Positions 587 to 43,715 of a DNA stretch of 64,000 bases are shown one piece after another. This DNA comes from Saccostrea cucullata (taxonomy: Eukaryota): assembly GCF_032062105.1 (NCBI RefSeq), contig NW_026939106.1, positions 62,001-126,000 of the forward strand, read 5' to 3'. Below the pieces are notes generated by a model. The model worked only from the letters and a program-made list of their open reading frames with translations, made no database searches and was not told where the DNA came from. Made by a program: the position numbers and the translations under genes. Every line of letters starts with the position of its first letter. Positions within the stretch are counted from its first letter, which is position 1.

Positions 587-1301
587 GTTATTGACTCCTA
601 TGGAAAGCCAGTGGGTATTTTATGAAATACTAGTTAATCGGTAAATTCAAGATATTAAAGCACTACTCTTGTTTAAAAATAAACACTTTTTGTTTTCTGT
701 CTGCTCCTACTCCATTTTTTGAAATTAAGACGATTTGTTATATTTAAAAATCGAAAAGTATCTCCTAATAAAGGGGCATTACTCTGTTATTCTTAATCAA
801 AACTGTACAGTGAGCATTATACATATCGAACATTTTTGCAAGCTCAAACAACCCGAAATTATTTCATCCTTAAAAGACATATCTTCTTGTTGGGTCGTCT
901 TTGTATTGTACGTCATTTGTAAACTTGAACATTTTCATTTTTTTATGTCTCTTGATAGGCCAGCAGACAACATTTCAAACTATTTCTGATACTTGCAACG
1001 TCTATGCCGTCTACTGATTTTTATTAGAAAATGAGACTAATTTTCAAATAGAAATCAATAAACGACAAATATAAAACATCAACGACATACTTATGAGTAA
1101 AAAAGTGAATTCAATTCTGCTTTCTACTCCCCCTAGGCTCCTAGAACTCTCTTCCCAAAGGGGTCTAAACCATCAAATTCAATGTAATTTTCAAAAATAA
1201 ATCTCAAGTTAACAAATCACATCAGGGGTTAATTGATTTGCATGATTATAAAGAACAATTACCCTGTAATAAAATAAAAACTTAATAAATATGTTGTCTG
1301 G

Positions 1302-1407
1302 TTGCTACAGAATTGTAGCTCTCTGCCTGAAATATTAGGACATATAAAGCTTTTAATAACTGTCCAAATTTTCTCAAGTAGAGAGCGGGGCTACAGCTCT
1401 GCAGTTA
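1302..1407. mobile_element. 106-bp MITE, family A (TAGCTGCAGAAC termini, degraded), AcademH-like
   Basis: ~40-bp imperfect TIRs; exact 9-bp TSD GTTGTCTGG at 1293-1301 and 1408-1416. Confidence 0.8.
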
Positions 1408-1424
1408 GTTGTCTGGATCTTTGG

Positions 1425-2134
1425 CATCTTCGCTAGCCAAGGGTTTCCGATCCGATACCTACTCTTCAACCCTTGGCAGATTTAGCTGAAAATTTTAGAA
1501 CTCGCGCAAACGAATTTGATTGGCTGCGAAGTCCGAGTCTACGCAAGGTTTTTACTAATCGACGATTTTCGGCTGAATTAAAGTCTGTTCGTGTTTTATG
1601 CAAAATAAGAGTAATATTTACAAGGGATGAAAGTTAGGACGTGATATATGCTTAAAAAACAAGGGATTAATTAATTTGAATTTTTTTCTTTTAATTATAT
1701 ATGTTTTCAAGAATTATTGAAAGGACCACATAAGTCCGTGTTCCGCATTTTAGGTGCGTCAATTTAAGCCAATCAAATGTCACGGCTCATTGATAATAAT
1801 TGATACCGCAACAAGTAGAAAGTGGGGTCAAACTCTTGACTAAAAATCCACGACGAACAATATTTTCTACAACTTTTGAGGTGTGCCCACTGCCCACAGC
1901 TGTGTGAAGTTGTTTGGATATATTCCACATCAAATTGCATGGAGGTCGCCATATTGTTTTAAACGTCATATTGATCTACGTATGTTACAGCTATTTTCAT
2001 TGGACAGATATTAAAGAGCTTCAAGGGACTTAACTCATTTACGGCGATAGGCGGCGCAATCAAAGTTCCCGTTTGATAGATGCCAAGGGTTGTAGAGTAG
2101 ATTTCGGATCGGAAACCCTTGGCTAGCGAAGATG
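1425..2134. mobile_element. 710-bp non-autonomous DNA transposon, family B (CATCTTCGCTAGCCAAGGG termini), AcademH-like
   Basis: ~54-bp TIRs; exact 9-bp TSD GATCTTTGG at 1416-1424 and 2135-2143. YR..YR termini plus a 9-bp TSD fit AcademH better than Mutator; the superfamily call is inference. Confidence 0.9.
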
Positions 2135-2299
2135 GATCTTTGGTTCAGTCCTCGAGCTGGGACTGGTAATATTTTTTGTCACCTAACCGGTAAGGGTATG
2201 CAAAAGTAGACATGATCTCTCAAAACAATCACACCAGACACACAGAACATACCCCCTGCGATGCGAACGTGATTGATTTTGGCAATGCAGCATTGTTGG

Positions 2300-2832
2300 T
2301 AGCTGCAGAACTGTAGCTCTCCGAAAAATATATATTGACAGACCGGAGAGCTACAGTGCCACCCATTGAAAAAACTGTATACTTATTGCGCACAAAAAAG
2401 TGCGCTGTTTCCCGATTTACTTCTCCATGTTTTTAAAACTGTCCCTTTGCTTACCGTATGTTCCTAACATATTCTTTGATTGCTTCCACAACAAAACATT
2501 CATTGTAATTGTTGTTAAAGGCCCTTCTGGGCCTGAAATTGAGATCATCGAAAATTTCGTCCATTTACTCTGCCATTTTGGTTTGAACGGTAATTCGGTA
2601 CAGCACGCTCCGTGCAGATGTCGACTACGAGAAAACTTGATAAAGGGGGTAAGGAATATACCGTATTGAAATTCAGCTTTTTTCGCTATTGAGGTAAGGA
2701 TTTGGAAGAATTGATCCAGAACCAAGCGAAACTTTTTGTGCTCAATAAATATACAGTTTTTTTCAATGGGTGGCACTGTAGCTCTCCGGTCTGTCACTAT
2801 AAATTTTTCGGAGAGCTACAGTTCTGCAGCTA
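2300..2832. mobile_element. 533-bp non-autonomous DNA transposon, family A, AcademH-like
   Basis: ~100-bp TIRs beginning TAGCTGCAGAACTGTAGCTCTCCG; exact 9-bp TSD CATTGTTGG at 2291-2299 and 2833-2841. Confidence 0.9.
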
Positions 2833-2849
2833 CATTGTTGGTCAATTGT

Positions 2850-2921
2850 CATCTTCTCAATGCCTGGGGTCCCGCGTCAACATGTTGCCGTTTGACTCGG
2901 GACCCCTGGCTTGCGAGGATG
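2850..2921. mobile_element. 72-bp hairpin mini-element with family B-like termini
   Basis: CATCTTCTCAATGCCTGGGGTCCCG...CGGGACCCCTGGCTTGCGAGGATG; TSD GTCAATTGT/GCCAATTGT (8 of 9 match). Confidence 0.75.
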
Positions 2922-3892
2922 GCCAATTGTATGAGTGTAACATCTGAAACATGCTTATGTCGCTTATCCAAAAAGAGAGAATCCCTTGCTTCTGGTCCTA
3001 GGGTGGGACATAGTTGATCATATACTAAAGATTAAAAAAATCTTTTGCAATATTTGAAGATTAAACAGACAGTCTATTTGCATCTTTTGTAAGCACTTAA
3101 CTGTGTTTTTGAATGGTAAATAAAGATTTTATAATCAATTCTTAATGACTTGAAATTGCTATTCACGTTATTTTCAAATGATGTTTTAAAACAAAAATTC
3201 CTTGAAAAAAATTCCATAAATTTTTATGAAACATTATTCGAATTGAAAATCTAAATTTTGAATTCCTCGCGTAAATTAAAATCTCTTCTTCACTTGACTA
3301 CGGAATATAGAATTTAAGACAAGTAATCTATTACAAATAAGAAGTGTAACTCGGTGATTTATTGCATTTTTATAACACAGGTGTTAAAATCGTTATGGGA
3401 AAGCAAATTTTATAAGGAAAAGTGATAATCAACAATCTGAAAATGAGCTGTAATAAATTCTAGAACTTGGCAGACAAGATACTCAATTTATGTAATAGTT
3501 TTATCTTTTCCAGACGCATGAACTTGAGTATTTTGATTTTATCAATCACGGTGTGAAATTCTGATAAACTCTCCTTGCAGGTTTATATCATACAGGATAA
3601 AGATCTGATAACCGAGCTTCAAGGAATTAAAACCCTTTGTTTGATACTATTGTGCATTAGACCTCTGTGTTTGATTCTCTTGTGCATTCATTTGTTAAAC
3701 ATGAAACATTTACGAGTCATTGTATTATTTCGCCATAAAGTATATTCTTATAAAATGATGCCCATCATGGATATTTCTGGCGTGTTTTCTTTGAAGGGGA
3801 AATTCCATTAGCATTGCAGTGACCGAAGAGTTCCAAATTGTCCGTTTCTTCAAAGTGGGTTAATAATTCGCAAAAGATGTTTAACCCTGACG

Positions 3893-3965
3893 TAGCTGCA
3901 GAACTGTGACTCTCTGCTTGAGAAAATTCGGACAGATAAAGCAGAGAGCTACAGTTCTGCAGCTT
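3893..3965. mobile_element. 73-bp hairpin mini-element, family A
   Basis: TAGCTGCAGAACTGTGACTCTCTGCTT...AAGCAGAGAGCTACAGTTCTGCAGCTT; exact 9-bp TSD ACCCTGACG at 3884-3892 and 3966-3974. Confidence 0.88.
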
Positions 3966-4542
3966 ACCCTGACGGACTTATAACTCCGCACAAGAAAATA
4001 GGTCATTTTAATAACGATGATATAATCTTGCAATTTTCTGCATATCACTACATCTGTATTTCACAACTGCGTTTGCAAAACAGGCATGTGAGAAATGAAA
4101 AATTAAATATACAAGTAGTACATGAACTTGTGGAAGAAAAATAAATTATTCTCGGCCAAATACAAAGCAACTGTCATGCAGTACATGTACATAGTCATTT
4201 GGTATATATGTCTTTAAGAAGCATAAGAGCATGTGTTCGTAAGATATTTCACTTAAATGAAAGAAATATTTAATTAAAATTAATTTTAAAGATGCTACAA
4301 AGAAATTACTGAATTCCTCTATTTTTGAAAAGCGGACAGAATGTTACGACATCTTCAGTGAAGATGCAAAATAAAGGAACTTCTTCCAAGAGAGCTTTTC
4401 ATTATATTGAATAAGTTAAACTTAAAAGATATCCGATATCCATTACGTAGCACAATTTTTTCCCCCATGAATTGAGATTTCGTGCGGTAATTTCGTGAAG
4501 CTCGACAGATAACTCTCAGGAAGTGGACTTTGATTGACTTTG

Positions 4543-4594
<52 letters not shown>

Positions 4595-4634
4595 TGTTGT
4601 CTGTCGTTCTTGTCGTAGTCGTCGTCGTCGTTGT

Positions 4635-4665
<31 letters not shown>

Positions 4666-4706
4666 AAGAACCACAGGGCCAAATTCAACCAAACTTGGCA
4701 CAAGGT

Positions 4707-4775
<69 letters not shown>

Positions 4776-5843
4776 ATGAATTAGAGAAAAATGAATGGCA
4801 TTTTAAAAAAATCTTCTTCTCAATAACCACTGGGCCAGGGAAGATGAAACTCATGTGGAATCATCCTCAGGTAGTGTAGATTCAAGTTTATTAAAATCAT
4901 GACCCCCGGGGGTAGGGTGGGGCCAAAATGGCCGATCATAATTTTACATAGGAATATATAGGAAAAATCTTTAAAAATCTTCTTCTCAAGAACCACTGGG
5001 CCAGGAAAGATGAAACTCATGTGGAATCATCCTCAGGTAGTGTAGATTCAAGTTTGTTAAAATCATGACCCCCGGGAGAGCGTGGGGCCAAAATGGCCGA
5101 TCAAAGTTTTACATAGGAATATATACAAAAAATCTTAAGAAATCTTCTTCTCAAGAACCATTCAGACAGGAAAGATAAAACTCATGTGAAATCATTCTCA
5201 GGTAGTGTAGATTCAATTTTTTTTTTATTATGACCCCCAGGGGTAGGGTGGGGCCAAAATGGCTGATCAAAGTTTTACATAGGAATATATTGGGAAAATC
5301 TTTAAAAATCTTCTTCTCAAGAACTATTGGGCCAGGAAAGATGAAACTCATGTGGAATCATCCTCAGGTAGTGTAGATTCAAGTTTGTTCATATCATGCC
5401 CCTGGCGGTAGGGTGGGGCCAAAGTGATCGATCAAAGTTTTACCTAGGAATATATAGGAAAAATCTTTAAAAATCTTCTTCTCAAGAAGTGATTGAGACA
5501 GGAAAGATAAAACTCATGTGAAATCATTCTCAGGTAGTGTAAATTCAAATTTGTTCAAATCATGACCCCCGGGGAAGGTAGGGGCCAAAATGGTAGATCA
5601 AAGTTTTTCACAAGAATATATAGGGAAATCTTTTAAAATCTTCTCAAGTACTTCAAAGCCATAATTAGTGATATTTATATGAAATCATCCTCAGGTAGTG
5701 TAGATTCTAGTTTGTTCAAATCATGACCCCCTGGGGGGTTAAAATTTAAGCCCCCCTCCAAACTCAGTAAACTTTCATTTCTGATATTTGCTTTTTCCTA
5801 GCCGGTGTGCTCAGGTGAGCGCTGTGGCCCCTGGGCCTCTTTT
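4543..5843 (+). mobile_element. Non-autonomous Helentron (HINE/pearl-type) carrying a ~166-bp satellite array
   Basis: 5' subTIR AGCTCACCTGAGC plus hairpin, (GTC)n microsatellite, tandem units, 3' subTIR GCTCAGGTGAGC and terminal hairpin GGCCCCTGGGCC; T-rich flanks. Confidence 0.85.
4817..5740 (+). repeat. Tandem ~165-166-bp satellite units (oyster Cg170/HindIII-like)
   Basis: Unit anchor TTCTCAA at 4817, 4983, 5148, 5314, 5479 and 5641. The family name is from recall and was not searched. Confidence 0.85.
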
Positions 5844-13775: not shown

Positions 13776-14492
13776 AGGTTTCGTCAAATGTAAAAATGTC
13801 CAAAAAATTATTTTCACAATAGCTCCAAAACTATGAGTGGTCAAAACGTTTATAGTTCATAAATATATCATTGATTAATAGATAGAAAGTATCACTTGAT
13901 AACAAACATTTTATAAAAGAAATTTTTTGAGAAAATTTGTATCAGAAAATGTGCATATTTAAAGAAAAATCACCTGCTTTATTCTGTCCTTTTTGTGAAA
14001 ACCATCAATGCAGAAATATTTAAATATATGTTTATCATTTAAGGGCAAGTTGGACGTGAATGGTCTCTGAAAGGCTGTTTTTGAAAGCATGACATGTATG
14101 TATAAAGACAAGACCCCTATAGAATCCGCCATTTGCAATTTACTTTCACTTTCAAGTCTTAACATTTGGACAAAATAAACAGGGAAAACAACTTTCCAGA
14201 GGCTGTCCAAGTCCAACTTGCCCTTCATTGATCAACATATTTTGTTTTTGCAATGATGGTTTTCACTTAGAGAACGGAATTGATTAGGTGTATTTTTTGA
14301 AAATATGTGCATTTTAAAGAAGAATTTTTCTCAAATAATATTTTTTCCAAGCATTTTTTTATCAAGTGATACTTTTTATCTGTTAATCAATGAAAAATTT
14401 ATTAACAATAAAAGTTTTAACTTTATACCTCACATAGTTTTGGGGCTATTGTAAAAATAAATTTATGGGCATGATGATCTTTGACGAAACCT
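13776..14492. mobile_element. ~715-bp fold-back element (possibly Kolobok-like)
   Basis: Arms of ~280 bp in inverted orientation (AGGTTTCGTCAA/TTGACGAAACCT, AAGTATCACTTGATAA/TTATCAAGTGATACTT, AAGGGCAAGTTGGAC/GTCCAACTTGCCCTT); TTAA on the left flank only. Confidence 0.7.
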
Positions 14493-36844: not shown

Positions 36845-39800
36845 CTGGAAAGATACGCGAAGAAAGATAACTCTTGCTAAAACTATGCAATAAAAATTAT
36901 TTAATATTGAAAACGACGCGCAATCCCCATTTCTGTCTGATGTTATTTGAAAAAAATATCAGTGCAACAGTGACATTGTGAAATTATCCATGTAAATGCA
37001 AAACGATTTTGTTGCATCTGTTTGTACTGAAATCTTTGTGACAGACACTTCATTTTAAAAGGGCCTGGATTCAGCTGCGTTGCTGTTTTATTTACAATTT
37101 CAAAATTTCAATTTTGTTTTTTTTAAAAATTCAATAACTGTTTGAGATGAACTTTCAAGACAATACTTAAAAACATAGGTAATCAAAGATTACGAAGCTC
37201 ACCTCAACGAATATTATCAGTTTAAGTAATGTAAACCTCACATCTTATTTTCTTTATAGTAAGTTTGCATCCTGATAGCAATATTCATGCAATTTCATTT
37301 TTATTAGGTCTTAAAATTCAATGGTATTGACCAGTCACCTGTTCCAAAATCTTTAACCTGTTAACTTTTCAAGAAATTGTCTTTCTTTTCCTACATCCTA
37401 CATCCGAGGAGAGTCTGGCATTGTCCATCCTTAGAAGCATCATCTATGCAAGTTATATTACAAAAGGCCATAAAATTACAGAGCTACTCAATAACATTAT
37501 CCTGGTCACTAATCTGAAAAATTTAGGTCAGATCCAGCATCCAAAGCAAGTCTAATGGTGTCCATCCCAAGATGCATCATCCATGCAAGTTTCGTCCTGT
37601 TAGGGCTTGTATAAATAGACCTAGGTTTACCGGTAAATATTTTTTCATTAATGAACAACTTTTTTTCATTTTTTAAACAAGTATATACTGACAAAAAGTC
37701 AGAGATACTCAAGCTGTAGAAAATCAACTTAGAAAAGTCATTAATATCCTAAAATGGTATAATGTGGGCTATTGAGTTCAATCTTCTATTGAATTATATA
37801 CATGTACATGAAACAAAATTCATATAATGAAGTTAATTAGAATAAATATAATTTATCGTACTATACGATGAATTTACGTTACTCACTTTCAGGAATATTT
37901 TATAGAGTATAGTAGACGTTTCTTGAATTAATAAAATATTTTTTATGTAGACATTTCATATACTTCAAACTATACGCTTTTTTAATTTTGCTTAATGACG
38001 TACATAAAAACATTTTATAAACATCAATCTAAATAGCTTGTTGCAAGTCGGAAGAAAAGTTTTTCAAAGTGGGGGGGGGGGGGGGGGCTCGGGGCTCCAA
38101 AAAGCCACGTAATTACCGGTATACGTGTACATCTAACTGTGCGGCATGTACAGTACATATTCCGTTCGAATCCAAAAGAAGTTATTTAGGTTCCGTTACC
38201 AAAGCTGAAGAAAGTACGATTTTTTAAAATAAAAAAAAAACGTATGAGGGAGAAATTAACATTAATTTTGCGCTATTATTTTACTGTCACTCAAAGTGCA
38301 CATCATTTTCAGGCCCGTTATAGGCAATTTCAGTTTGGGGGTACAGCCATACATTTTTTTGCTACGCATTGTAAAACTTTGACAGATAATAATGTATCTT
38401 AGTGTAGTCTACTTGTGAAGTTATGCCAAGTTATACTGAAATCAGACCAACACTGCGAGAATAAGCGTTTCGAAAATTTGTTAAGAGAAGGACAATTAGA
38501 AATGGGGTAACCTGCGTCACCTTTCAGAGTAACCAGTGGACTCGTCCAAGGATGCTTTGTCGGCGACTGTAAAAAGTACCTGAGATTCCTACGCAAATGA
38601 AAGCGCGAAATCTCTGTATAGAAACTGTTGCAGCTGCGACGCTTCACTCATTGTTCATACGCTGTAGAATAGAATCCGACTTTTAACACTTAATATTTTA
38701 GAATATATAGACGTTTTCAACATAAGCTTCATTTTTGTTTCTAGAAATATGTTTATCTACAAATATAATATAATTTCGTGTTTTTAAACTGAGTAATTCG
38801 ATGACCTAGCATCGTTTTAGATAACTCAAGCCCCTCTAGGGCTTGAGTAAAAATATTAAGGATACATTTTACCACAGTTACTTGTGGACAGGACCCCCCC
38901 CCCCCCAGATATTCAACCCAGGGGCTAAATTTTACATTTTTTTCACAATTTATATTTAGTACACTTATTCAACATGTTTGCAATAGGAACAAATCGTCAA
39001 AACCCCAAAATAATCGCTCCTCAAAAAAATACCCCACTATACATTATAAGAGAGAGGGGTAACAACTTAGGTTTGTTTACGTTTAGGTAAACGCAACGGA
39101 AGTGCCTATTACCTATTATGATAACACCCGAGAGTGATTATTACGTCAGGCAAAAACTCTCTCGGACGTTATCGTACTAGAAAACACCAAACACCCAACG
39201 AACGAACGTATCTCGACGATATTAACCGTATTACTACTTTATAAATACCATTACTCGCTTTATATTTATTTTGTAATAATTTCAAAGGCGGATCCAGCGC
39301 CGGGCGTGCGCCCCCTCCTCCATTTGATTTTTTAATTCTGTTTGTATTACCTTAAAATCAACAGGAAAACATCTCTTTTTGTTATAGAATTCCTCAGTTT
39401 CCGGGGGCTTTGCCCCTGGATCCCCACCAGGGCTTTGTCTGGACCCACTGGGAGCCCTAATGCAGCCCCCAGACTTCCCAGTCTTCTACTGCGCCCCCCC
39501 CTCCCCACGTTTTGAAATTCCTGGAACCGCCGCTGAATAAATATTTAGACAGTTTAACTGCTAGTACATATTTCTACAATTCCTAGTTAGATATGAACGA
39601 CCAATATCGGGTTATTATATTTATGTCGAGTTAATGACACCCTAGATGGGATCTTGCGTCTATTGTTAAATTGTGCATAGCTCTTGCAAAGCGTCGTATT
39701 GTTAATTGTTACAACCTATAAGAATGGCACGCCAAATTCACAAAAATGAGCTAAACATAGTCTCACAGTTGATAAACTACATTTATCAACTGTAAACTAA

Positions 39801-41560
39801 AGATAATAAACCTTAAACTATAGTTAACAATTCGTTAATATAGTTTTCATCTGTAAAACTATGTTTAACGGTTGTTAACTCTAGTTTACGAATGCTAATA
39901 TAAGTTTATCTGTCTATAATAAAACGTTAACAATAGATTTTGTTGGTAAATATAGATTCAAGTCTGTAAACTTTAATTTACAATCGTGAACTATAGTTAA
40001 GAGTTGTTAATCATAGTTTCACAAATCGTGAAACTATATTTATCAGATCGATAACTATAGTTAAGGTTCATAAACCCTCTGCTTATAATACTCATATAAA
40101 ATATTTCTTTAACTTTTATGATTTTCCAAAAAAAAGTATATGCTAAATAAAATACAAACAATTTTATCATGGCTTACGGGGCAAAATTTGACAAAAAAGG
40201 CACTTCAACTTGACAAATTTATAAAGGAATAATAGAATTTATGTCATCAAGAGTTATCTCTCTTATCAGAGTATCAATGTACCTAGAGAGTTGTAAACAT
40301 AGTTTACAAATCGTGAAACTGTATCTATCAGATAATCTATGCTTTGCAACCGCAAATGATTGTTTTCAGTGTTACGGTTCTGAAACATAGATTATCGCGT
40401 TATCTATGGTTTACAGATATAAAATATAGATTAACGTTCAACTTGTTCACAATAGTTTACAGTCCGTAAACTATACTTTACAACCGATAAACATAGTTTT
40501 TCGGCTGTGGAACTATGTTTAGCTCATTTTTGTGAATTTGGCGTGCCATAGATAAGACGTTATCGTAATATACAAAGGCCATCCTTTAACATGGCGAATC
40601 CAGCAATTTTTGAAAAGGGGGGGGGGGGGTCCAGGTCGGTGTACCAAGCACTCATGCATAGAATCACACCATGGCCACTTCAAGTCCGTAGCTTCATTTA
40701 TAAGAAGAGGGAGCTCCAAAAACATTTGACAAGCAAAACAAACAAACAAAACAAAAAAAACCTATGCACCTTACTTTAAAATTGGGAGGGGGTAGAGGGG
40801 GGATTCGTACCACTTTTCTGTTCGGTACATTACTTTCAATTTTAAATCTGCGTATTTTCCGGAAACAAAAGATGTGGAGGGAGCTTCAAAAACAAAATAT
40901 TATTTAAAACTGCAGCAAAAGATTATTCTCAGAAAAAGACTTCGTGAGCCCCCTCCTTCTGCATTCTACAGGAACATTTTAACATTTTTCTATATTGATT
41001 GATTAAAAATTGAAGATGGTCCAAACATGGTATAGCTAAAGTTCGCTGGAATCTTCCTAGCATGTTACTTGTGGATGTTCGGGGCCCTTAGACGGGGTTG
41101 TGAAGGTACACGGAGCAAAGCAAATACGCCAAAATCTACAAAATGTTAAATAAGCCCCGGGGTTGAATATCGTGGGGGGGGGGGGGTCCTGTCCACAAGT
41201 ACCTGTGCATTTTACCATGTGCTTCAATCAAAGGCGTCCCGAGATCTGTACAGATCGGGAAAAAGATGATTCTCATCAATTTTTATTAATTTATAGGCCT
41301 AAAATACTTTAGGAACATGGACATGCAATTCATGGTATTATACCAAAAATTTTAGTACATAAGTACATACCACTCGTCGGAAGTCGATCTATGAAATCGC
41401 CAAAGGAACTTGCGATGTGTTGCGCATCGTGAAATGGGCGTTCCCTCCAAACTGCTGCGGCGCACAAGCTGCAGTGCTCCACGACATTACCAAAGCACTG
41501 AATGAATTCCTCATAAGTCATCTTGTTGACTTTCTTTAGGGGAATTTTGGTAGTTGACAT
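36486..41560 (-). CDS. URAD: OHCU decarboxylase (urate degradation), 182 aa, exons 41560-41371 and 36844-36486
   Basis: N-terminal VNKMTYEEFIQCFGNVVEH..RPF; catalytic HPDLAG, SESTREQxSAGL, YKDKFGFPFVICAR, EVKKICRLR. Phase-1 GT-AG intron 41370-36845. Confidence 0.95.
39283..39535. mobile_element. Nested GC-rich hAT-like MITE
   Basis: CAAAGGCGGATCCAG / CTGGAACCGCCGCTG termini; degraded 8-bp TSD AATAATTT/AATAAATA. Confidence 0.65.
39723..40550. mobile_element. Nested IS3EU-like non-autonomous element
   Basis: ~40-bp near-perfect TIR ATGGCACGCCAAATTCACAAAAATGAGCTAAACATAGT; TAYGG-type terminus; 6-bp TSD TATAAG/GATAAG; interior of ~22-bp AACTATAGTT subrepeats. Confidence 0.85.
41371..41560 (-). 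CDS. URAD: URAD coding exon 1
   Basis: ATG at 41560; donor G|GTATGT. A possible acceptor TTTTCCAATAG just upstream (41575) suggests a further 5' UTR exon. Confidence 0.92.
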
Positions 41561-43585: not shown

Positions 43586-43715
43586 CAGGCACCTGACGTT
43601 ACTTAATTTTCTTTTAGTAAAAAAAAATATACACATACTTAATAATAAACTATTATTATTAGGTATGTGTATACTTTTTTTTATTAAAAGAAAAATAAGT
43701 AACGTCAGGTGCCTG
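43586..43715. repeat. 130-bp near-perfect palindrome
   Basis: CAGGCACCTGACGTTACTT..CATACTTAATAATAA mirrored by TTATTATTAGGTATG..AAGTAACGTCAGGTGCCTG; tiny loop, no TSD. Confidence 0.9.

What the first reader, a model, noticed from the sequence alone, without database searches (positions are those of the whole stretch)
1425..3974. Palindrome-within-TIR architecture and 72-73-bp 'solo-hairpin' derivatives
Seen: in both long elements each TIR has 11 terminal bp followed, at position 12, by a stem-loop (B: GCCAAGGGTT-22nt-AACCCTTGGC; A: CTGTAGCTCTCCG-20nt-CGGAGAGCTACAG), although the families share no obvious sequence. The left and right hairpin stems are therefore also direct repeats. The mini copies at 3893-3965 (11+16+19+16+11 bp) and 2850-2921 are terminus-hairpin-terminus with TSDs retained. 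Inference: recombination between the two hairpins deletes the interior, a DNA-transposon analogue of a solo LTR, or this unit is the minimal mobile substrate.
Basis: partly seen in the sequence, partly recalled or inferred. Interest (0 to 1): 0.7.

Follow-up and report, generated by a model that had tools for sequence, protein, structure and literature searches.

The report
Hairpin-bounded deletions in helicase transposons
These are non-coding copies of a helicase-carrying DNA transposon group whose ends hold a conserved stem-loop, and their shortened 60-110-base remnants break mostly at the inner edge of that loop, likely because copying stalls there, while only a few are the 'solo-hairpin' recombinants first proposed.

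Summary
The architecture is real: 11 terminal bases, then a 10-16-bp stem-loop, in both TIRs, with 9-bp TSDs. It is lineage-wide. The hairpin also occurs in 9 of 10 long elements folded that encode a DDE transposase (8 of the 10 also shown to encode a helicase); one has B-type ends. This fits AcademH; no tree against reference Academ proteins was possible. The solo-LTR analogy holds for one of three minis in the window: 3893-3965 is an exact stem-to-stem deletion, but of a sister family, not of the neighbouring element. 2850-2921 and an unlisted 106-bp mini (1302-1407) are head-to-head fusions. Genome-wide, B-type minis number 5, 158, 81 and 5 in successive 30-31-bp size bins. Of 111 mapped minis, 102 are head-to-head, 6 solo and 3 reach further in; 78% of non-solo arm ends lie within 6 bases of the inner stem's first base. 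Minis show no sign of amplifying. Best reading: repair synthesis after excision stalls at the hairpin and the stubs are end-joined (inferred). Precedents exist for solo-type remnants (Tn10, KolobokP). The hairpin-bounded hotspot was not found in my searches, but the AcademH paper could not be read.

The parts
1293..1301 (.). left 9-bp TSD of A0
1302..1407 (.).
1408..1424 (.). right TSD of A0 (1408-1416) overlapping by one base the left TSD of B1 (1416-1424)
1425..2134 (.). B1: 710-bp non-autonomous element, CAT...ATG ends, TIR 54 bp here (about 60 in other copies)
1436..1477 (+). B1 left stem-loop (10-bp stem, 22-nt loop)
2082..2123 (-). B1 right stem-loop
2135..2143 (.). right TSD of B1
2291..2299 (.). 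left TSD of A1
2300..2832 (.). A1: 533-bp non-autonomous element, TAG...CTA ends, TIR about 107 bp
2311..2356 (+). A1 left stem-loop (13-bp stem, 20-nt loop)
2776..2821 (-). A1 right stem-loop
2833..2849 (.). right TSD of A1 (2833-2841) overlapping by one base the left TSD of B2 (2841-2849)
2850..2921 (.). B2: 72-bp head-to-head mini of family B', junction near 2891-2892 at the end of the left loop; not a solo
2922..2930 (.). right TSD of B2 (1 mismatch)
3884..3892 (.). left TSD of A2; a single copy in the empty allele of sample S1
3893..3965 (.). A2: 73-bp true solo hairpin (terminus-stem-loop-stem-terminus) of family A'
3966..3974 (.). right TSD of A2

Best explanation
The window holds non-autonomous, likely AcademH, DNA transposons whose TIRs carry a conserved stem-loop starting 11 bases from the end, and their 60-110-bp minis are one-off internal deletions whose arms end at the loop/inner-stem edge, likely because repair synthesis copying inward from both flanks after excision stalls at the hairpin and the two stubs are then end-joined. 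Shown: architecture, TSDs, coding partners with the same end architecture, size peak, breakpoint clustering, rarity of solos. Inferred: that a long copy stood at each site first, that the stall is caused by the stem pairing while the polymerase is in the loop, and that host end joining finishes the job. Solos such as A2 are the minority outcome in which the stubs anneal through the stems, which are direct repeats.
For: Size peak: B-type ends 5/158/81/5 for 28-57, 58-88, 89-119, 120-150 bp against 15/47/78/109 expected from uniform breakpoints; A-type 46/70/29 for 60-90, 91-121, 122-428 against 3/4/138. Arm ends: median +2 from the first base of the inner stem, 78% of 210 arms within 6 bases; both arms within 6 bases in 68 of 105 non-solo minis against a null mean of 12 and a maximum of 25 in 5000 draws with lengths held fixed. 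The break follows the hairpin, not TIR length: it is at 43-50 both in B1 (TIR about 54-60) and in A1/A' (TIR over 100). Synthesis footprints: 4 of 5 oversize B minis (3 sites) and long copy L072 copy the first 36-52 bases and restart at the terminus. Many 122-428-bp A copies keep one arm of 55 bases or less (about 11 of 15 fetched). Similar joints appear in short-read contigs of another sample, e.g. 1464>2093, so they are unlikely to be artefacts of this assembly. Aborted gap repair plus end joining is documented for P elements and MITE birth (PMC2895639, PMC3814204; passages read).
Against: No site with both a long and a mini allele was found (144 mini flank pairs against 63 long copies; only an empty allele of A2 in one sample), so in-situ origin is not shown. 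Junctions are mostly blunt or 1-nt (39 of 55 well-aligned; 9 with 2-5 nt, 7 with insertions), shorter than I recall as typical of polymerase-theta joins. 37 of 111 minis have 3 or more mismatches in a 9-bp TSD test (8- and 10-bp TSDs were not credited there). References for families B3, B4, B4b and B5 were built from the minis' own arms, and 8 poorly aligned or unreferenced minis of 119 were dropped. Only 141 of 355 minis counted in the four bins 58-121 bp were fetched; A-type elements under 60 bp were not searched.
Confidence: 0.5

Rival explanations
1. Minis are born at the target site: the element's own helicase unwinds the donor after strand transfer, a copying step runs inward from both 9-nt gaps, and it aborts at the hairpins, so the hairpin would be a functional single-strand signal of transposition.
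For: The hairpin is kept in 9 of 10 coding elements with unrelated end sequences, with changes on both sides at 4 of 11 stem pairs across B families. The partners encode a RecQ-like helicase. Only an empty allele was seen at A2. The helicase lineage is the one with 9-10-bp TSDs (PMC10045372, passage).
Against: The transposase model is closest to cut-and-paste enzymes (P element Z 9.6, Hermes Z 7.0). One empty allele is expected under every model. One of ten coding elements (C10220) lacks the hairpin. No biochemistry.
Confidence: 0.2
2. Each TIR extrudes a cruciform that a host nuclease nicks on the 3' side of the loop; breaks at both ends release the interior and the 3' overhangs (the loops) are joined.
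For: Predicts the same position and a tail of arm ends into the loop, and blunt or short-homology junctions.
Against: Needs two breaks 300-700 bp apart with no trigger; 19-22-nt loops on 10-16-bp stems should extrude poorly (general knowledge); does not explain restart duplications.
Confidence: 0.15
3. One reading: recombination or slippage between the directly repeated stems leaves a solo hairpin, or the solo is itself the mobile unit.
For: True for A2, for L092 (64 bp, family B') and for 6 of 111 mapped minis. Precedents: Tn10 nearly precise excision (PMC12524634, passages) and KolobokP solo LTDRs (PMC9587614, passages).
Against: 102 of 111 are head-to-head; size peaks lie near 84-97 bp, not 64-73 bp; repeated solos (L106 group) share flanks, so they are one event.
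Confidence: 0.05
4. The stem is only two inverted transposase-binding sites at fixed spacing in double-stranded DNA; the hotspot reflects bound protein blocking synthesis or resection, not a folded strand.
For: The terminal 20 bases are themselves a weaker palindrome (4-8 of 10 pairs), so each end reads as three copies of one motif; hairpin length is similar across families (about 42-51 bp in the non-autonomous families).
Against: The stem arms are perfectly complementary over 10-16 bp in A1, A', B1 and B' while the terminal copy is not; several coding elements have bulged stems and variable loops, which suits a fold better than fixed-spacing sites.
Confidence: 0.1

Closest known systems
AcademH DNA transposons (Kojima 2020; paper not held; features taken from PMC10045372 and PMC10799480 passages)
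   Same: TIRs, 9-bp (sometimes 8- or 10-bp) TSD, coding relatives with a DDE transposase and a DEAD/Helicase_C RecQ-like helicase; Academ is reported as amplified in bivalves (PMC10294476, passages).
   Different: A conserved subterminal stem-loop and a hairpin-bounded deletion class were not found in my literature searches; the defining paper and Repbase entries could not be read and may describe the hairpin.
Tn10 nearly precise excision
   Same: Deletion between short direct repeats inside the terminal inverted repeats, by copy choice (PMC12524634, passages); that it leaves an about 50-bp remnant with the TSD is recalled. A2 is this kind of product.
   Different: Bacterial; here such solos are about 5% of minis and the main class breaks at the loop edge without long homology.
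KolobokP solo LTDRs (PMC9587614, passages)
   Same: A DNA-transposon analogue of solo LTRs already described in molluscs, TSD retained.
   Different: KolobokP has long terminal direct repeats each with its own TIRs, RR...YY ends and 3-5-bp TSDs; here there are inverted ends, a 10-16-bp stem as the only direct repeat, and 9-bp TSDs.
Abortive gap repair plus end joining (P element; Ozma-derived MITEs)
   Same: Internal deletions that keep both ends and the TSD (PMC2895639, PMC3814204, passages).
   Different: There the breakpoints follow scattered microhomologies and some products amplify as MITEs; here they pile up at one structural position in at least eight families and do not amplify.
Helitron 3' hairpin and IS200/IS605 subterminal hairpins (recalled)
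   Same: A stem-loop a short fixed distance from the end of a mobile element; Helitrons also encode a helicase.
   Different: Those use HUH nucleases, lack TIRs and make no TSD; these elements have TIRs, 9-bp TSDs and a DDE fold.

Membership tests
AcademH | Terminal inverted repeats | tested here: met
AcademH | 9- or 10-bp TSD | tested here: met
   Perfect 9-bp TSD in 17 of 29 A1 and 20 of 29 B1 copies, perfect 10-bp in 2 and 1, perfect 8-bp in 3 B1 copies; empty allele with one copy; definition from PMC10045372
AcademH | Autonomous partner encoding a superfamily-2 RecQ-like helicase (B families) | tested here: met
   C2006 (9,635 bp, 79-bp TIR, 80% to B1's end, TSD 8 of 9) and C14142 encode DEAD and/or Helicase_C plus DUF6589 on opposite strands; best solved relatives of the C12378 helicase are WRN and RecQ
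AcademH | Autonomous partner with the same ends (A families) | tested here: inconclusive
   No coding element with the exact A terminus among 40 loci fetched of 107 DUF6589 matches; C8788 (TAG end, hairpin, helicase, 9-bp TSD) only resembles A' by eye
AcademH | DDE/RNase H transposase | tested here: met
   Model of the C12378 DUF6589 frame (pLDDT 72.6) matches P-element transposase Z 9.6, rmsd 6.5, 289 aligned, then integrases, Hermes, RAG1; Foldseek alone gave no hit at E<=0.001; conserved acidic residues D208, D499, E503
AcademH | Placement inside the Academ clade by transposase phylogeny | not testable with these tools
   No Repbase Academ proteins available; that DUF6589 corresponds to Academ is recalled, not from a call
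Kolobok (KolobokH also has RecQ; KolobokP) | RR...YY termini and 3-5-bp TSD | tested here: not met
   Ends are CAT, TAG, CAA, CAG; TSD 9 bp; definition from PMC9587614
KolobokP solo LTDR | Long terminal direct repeats | tested here: not met
   Only inverted ends; direct repeats limited to 10-16-bp stems
Solo (stem-to-stem) recombinant | Junction inside the repeated stem, one intact loop, length 2T+2S+L | tested here: met
   A2 only among the window's three minis; 6 of 111 elsewhere
Solo (stem-to-stem) recombinant | Same test for B2 and A0 | tested here: not met
   Junctions at loop positions 42-43/29-30 (B2) and about 50/46 (A0)
Amplified MITE family (mini as mobile unit) | Same mini at many sites with different TSDs | tested here: not met
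   111 mapped minis: ten junction coordinates recur 2-3 times, but only 1 near-identical pair with the same junction at unlike flanks
Helitron/Helentron | No TSD, no TIRs, HUH nuclease (recalled) | tested here: not met
   TSD and TIRs present; DDE fold

The most novel reading that the evidence does not exclude
AcademH ends are read as single-stranded hairpins: the element's RecQ-like helicase opens the TIR, the stem-loop 11 bases in is a required signal for transposition, and the hundreds of head-to-head minis are aborted products of an element-driven copying step, which would make this a DDE transposon with a helicase-dependent single-strand intermediate.
Probability: 0.2. Interest if true: 0.8.

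Novelty: new variant of a known kind. Interest (0 to 1): 0.52.

Why it matters
Why one Academ lineage carries a RecQ-like helicase is, as far as I could read, unexplained. A stem-loop conserved in position but not in sequence across coding and non-coding families gives a concrete substrate to test, and near-intact candidate partners are named here (C2006, C12378, C8788). Several hundred minis also form a natural footprint of where DNA synthesis or repair stops at a 10-16-bp hairpin in an animal germ line, sharp to a few bases. For annotation: these short palindromes are dead-end deletions, not MITE families. The solo-LTR analogy itself is not new.

Tried and rejected
Minis as children of their window neighbours: rejected by alignment score (A2: A' 65.5 vs A1 28.3; B2: B' 57.0 vs B1 12.8). 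Random breakpoints: rejected. TIR length as the determinant: rejected, no second peak in 122-428 bp. Assembly artefact: unlikely (duplicated loci share junctions). First breakpoint script ran through the self-palindrome and was replaced by a split alignment, whose solo rule misfired and was corrected; one duplicate pair (L147/L148) escaped the flank filter, so 111 is at most 110 sites. Long/mini allele pair: none among fetched loci or in laid contigs; holders were contigs with at most 0.22 of the words, so this is weak. Unpaired A' ends were degraded or truncated copies as far as the fetched flanks reach. Foldseek gave no significant hit. Targeting of one family's end by the other: only 4 adjacent pairs among the loci scanned, not pursued. 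Earlier scan notes: none. The AcademH paper was not held; its figures and supplements may bear on the novelty of the hairpin.

Full report
Observation. The window has five related insertions between 1302 and 3965, each with a 9-bp TSD: A0 (106 bp), B1 (710), A1 (533), B2 (72) and A2 (73). A0 was not listed. Contigs of another sample (S1) join 3892 to about 3980 with one TSD copy, i.e. an empty allele of A2.

Families. G000 is a 1.17-Gb assembly. A1 and B1 are multicopy families of constant length (40 of 40 scored candidates near full length in each). A2 matches the ends of a sister family A' of about 545 bp, and B2 a family B' of about 330-355 bp. Further sister families share termini but differ in loop and stem. 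Among 8 B-type ends, 93% of stem cells pair and 4 of 11 pairs change on both sides; related sequences can inflate this measure.

Superfamily. On a recalled lead I searched DUF6589: 107 matches. Of 40 loci extended to about 20 kb, ten with TIRs and a 9-bp TSD, 8.6-17.3 kb long, were taken further. Eight of these ten gave a helicase Pfam hit; C14229 was not scanned, and the three C10220 frames scanned gave a LINE insertion and no helicase. C14142, with TIRs but no recognisable TSD, also has one. The closest solved helicases are WRN and RecQ. A model of the transposase frame matches the P-element transposase best (Z 9.6, rmsd 6.5, 289 aligned). C2006 and C14142 have B-type ends, 80% identical to B1's TIR, and two listed 97-bp minis carry C2006's loop. 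Nine of the ten fold into a stem-loop starting 11-15 bases from the end (z below -2 in seven; C10220 lacks it). A helicase with 9-10-bp TSDs defines AcademH according to PMC10045372 (passage); Kolobok features are not met (PMC9587614, passages). The A families are assigned by analogy only.

Size spectrum. Patterns demanding only the exact outer 14 bases at both ends gave, for B-type ends, 5, 158, 81 and 5 elements at 28-57, 58-88, 89-119 and 120-150 bp, and for A-type ends 46, 70 and 29 at 60-90, 91-121 and 122-428 bp. Uniform breakpoints would give 15/47/78/109 and 3/4/138.

Breakpoints. I fetched 141 minis (A: 46 of 46 and 30 of 70; B: 50 of 158 and 15 of 81; the first listed by contig number). 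After removing shared-flank duplicates 119 remained, and 111 after dropping 4 poorly aligned and 4 without a hairpin reference. Six are solos, 102 head-to-head (T-S-L joined to L'-S'-T'), 3 reach past the hairpin. Arm ends centre on the first base of the inner stem (median +2; 78% within 6 bases); both arms fall there in 68 of 105 against 12 expected at the same lengths. The position is the same in families with 54-60-bp and over-100-bp TIRs. In the window, A2 is a solo (14 equal junctions across the stem); B2 and A0 are head-to-head. Four of five oversize B minis, and one long copy, contain the first 36-52 bases twice, restarting at the terminus. Short-read contigs of another sample show joints of the same type.

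Mobility. Near-identical minis share flanks; only one pair with the same junction sits at unlike flanks. Minis therefore look like dead ends. Whether that reflects loss of the inner stem or a length limit cannot be told.

Mechanism. Shown: the hairpin bounds the deletions from the inside. Inferred: after excision both chromosome ends copy inward from the sister; once the outer stem arm has been copied and released it can pair with the inner arm ahead, so the polymerase stops at the end of the loop; stubs are joined, mostly bluntly (39 of 55 clean junctions have 0-1 nt homology), and rarely anneal through the stems to give a solo. This is a structured case of abortive gap repair (PMC2895639 and PMC3814204, passages). 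Against it: no long/mini allele pair was found. Rivals are birth at the target during a helicase-driven copying step, nicking of extruded cruciforms, and a protein-bound block.

Known versus new. Solo-type remnants have precedent in Tn10 nearly precise excision (PMC12524634, passages) and KolobokP solo LTDRs. Eight literature searches (listings, with passages read in PMC9587614, PMC10045372, PMC10294476, PMC5751038, PMC10799480, PMC3814204, PMC11071193, PMC12730594) showed no report of an AcademH hairpin or of this hotspot, but the AcademH paper itself was not held, so novelty is provisional.

Verdict. Observation mostly right; interpretation right for one mini and wrong as a rule; the larger result is a lineage-wide end hairpin with a sharp deletion hotspot. 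New variant of a known kind; interest 0.52.

Noticed in passing
window 1408-1424 and 2833-2849: Twice in the window an A-type right end is followed by a B-type element exactly 17 bases later, the two TSDs overlapping by one base. Elsewhere neighbours share a whole TSD (L113, L154). Unexplained; may be chance plus shared target preference.
   Followed up: partly
144 insertion sites in fetched loci: A and B families share a weak symmetric target preference outside the TSD: C at -3 in 46-49% (G at the mirrored position), with G or T at -4.
   Followed up: yes
L159/L199 and L122/L137: A- and B-type minis lie at what looks like the same position of a host repeat (near-identical flanks in different families).
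   Followed up: no
first 20 bases of all ends: The terminus and the start of the stem form a second, weaker palindrome centred near base 10-11, so each end reads as three copies of one short motif (forward, reverse, forward).
   Followed up: partly
L114, L150, L153, L222: Minis whose flanks are also inverted repeats for about 30-65 bases each side; L114 lies inside another A-type element. Could be fold-back events or nesting in palindromic elements.
   Followed up: partly
window about 4550-5830: Element with a 166-bp tandem array (5.6 copies) between short terminal modules; resembles, from memory, bivalve Helentron-like elements with central repeats.
   Followed up: no
window 13776-14492, 38873-41207, 39724-40549, 43586-43715: Other TIR or fold-back elements in the window, including a 130-bp near-perfect palindrome at 43586-43715.
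   Followed up: no
L290:5283-8983: A LINE with endonuclease and reverse-transcriptase frames is nested inside the coding element on C10220, the one element lacking the hairpin.
   Followed up: no
L365:5727-6272, L316:7682-8293, L302:2000-2665: N-terminal frames of the coding elements begin close to the TIR and give weak zf-AD or BEN matches below the curated cut-offs.
   Followed up: no
L075:1379-2595: A B1 copy is nested inside an A' element about 120 bases from its end.
   Followed up: no
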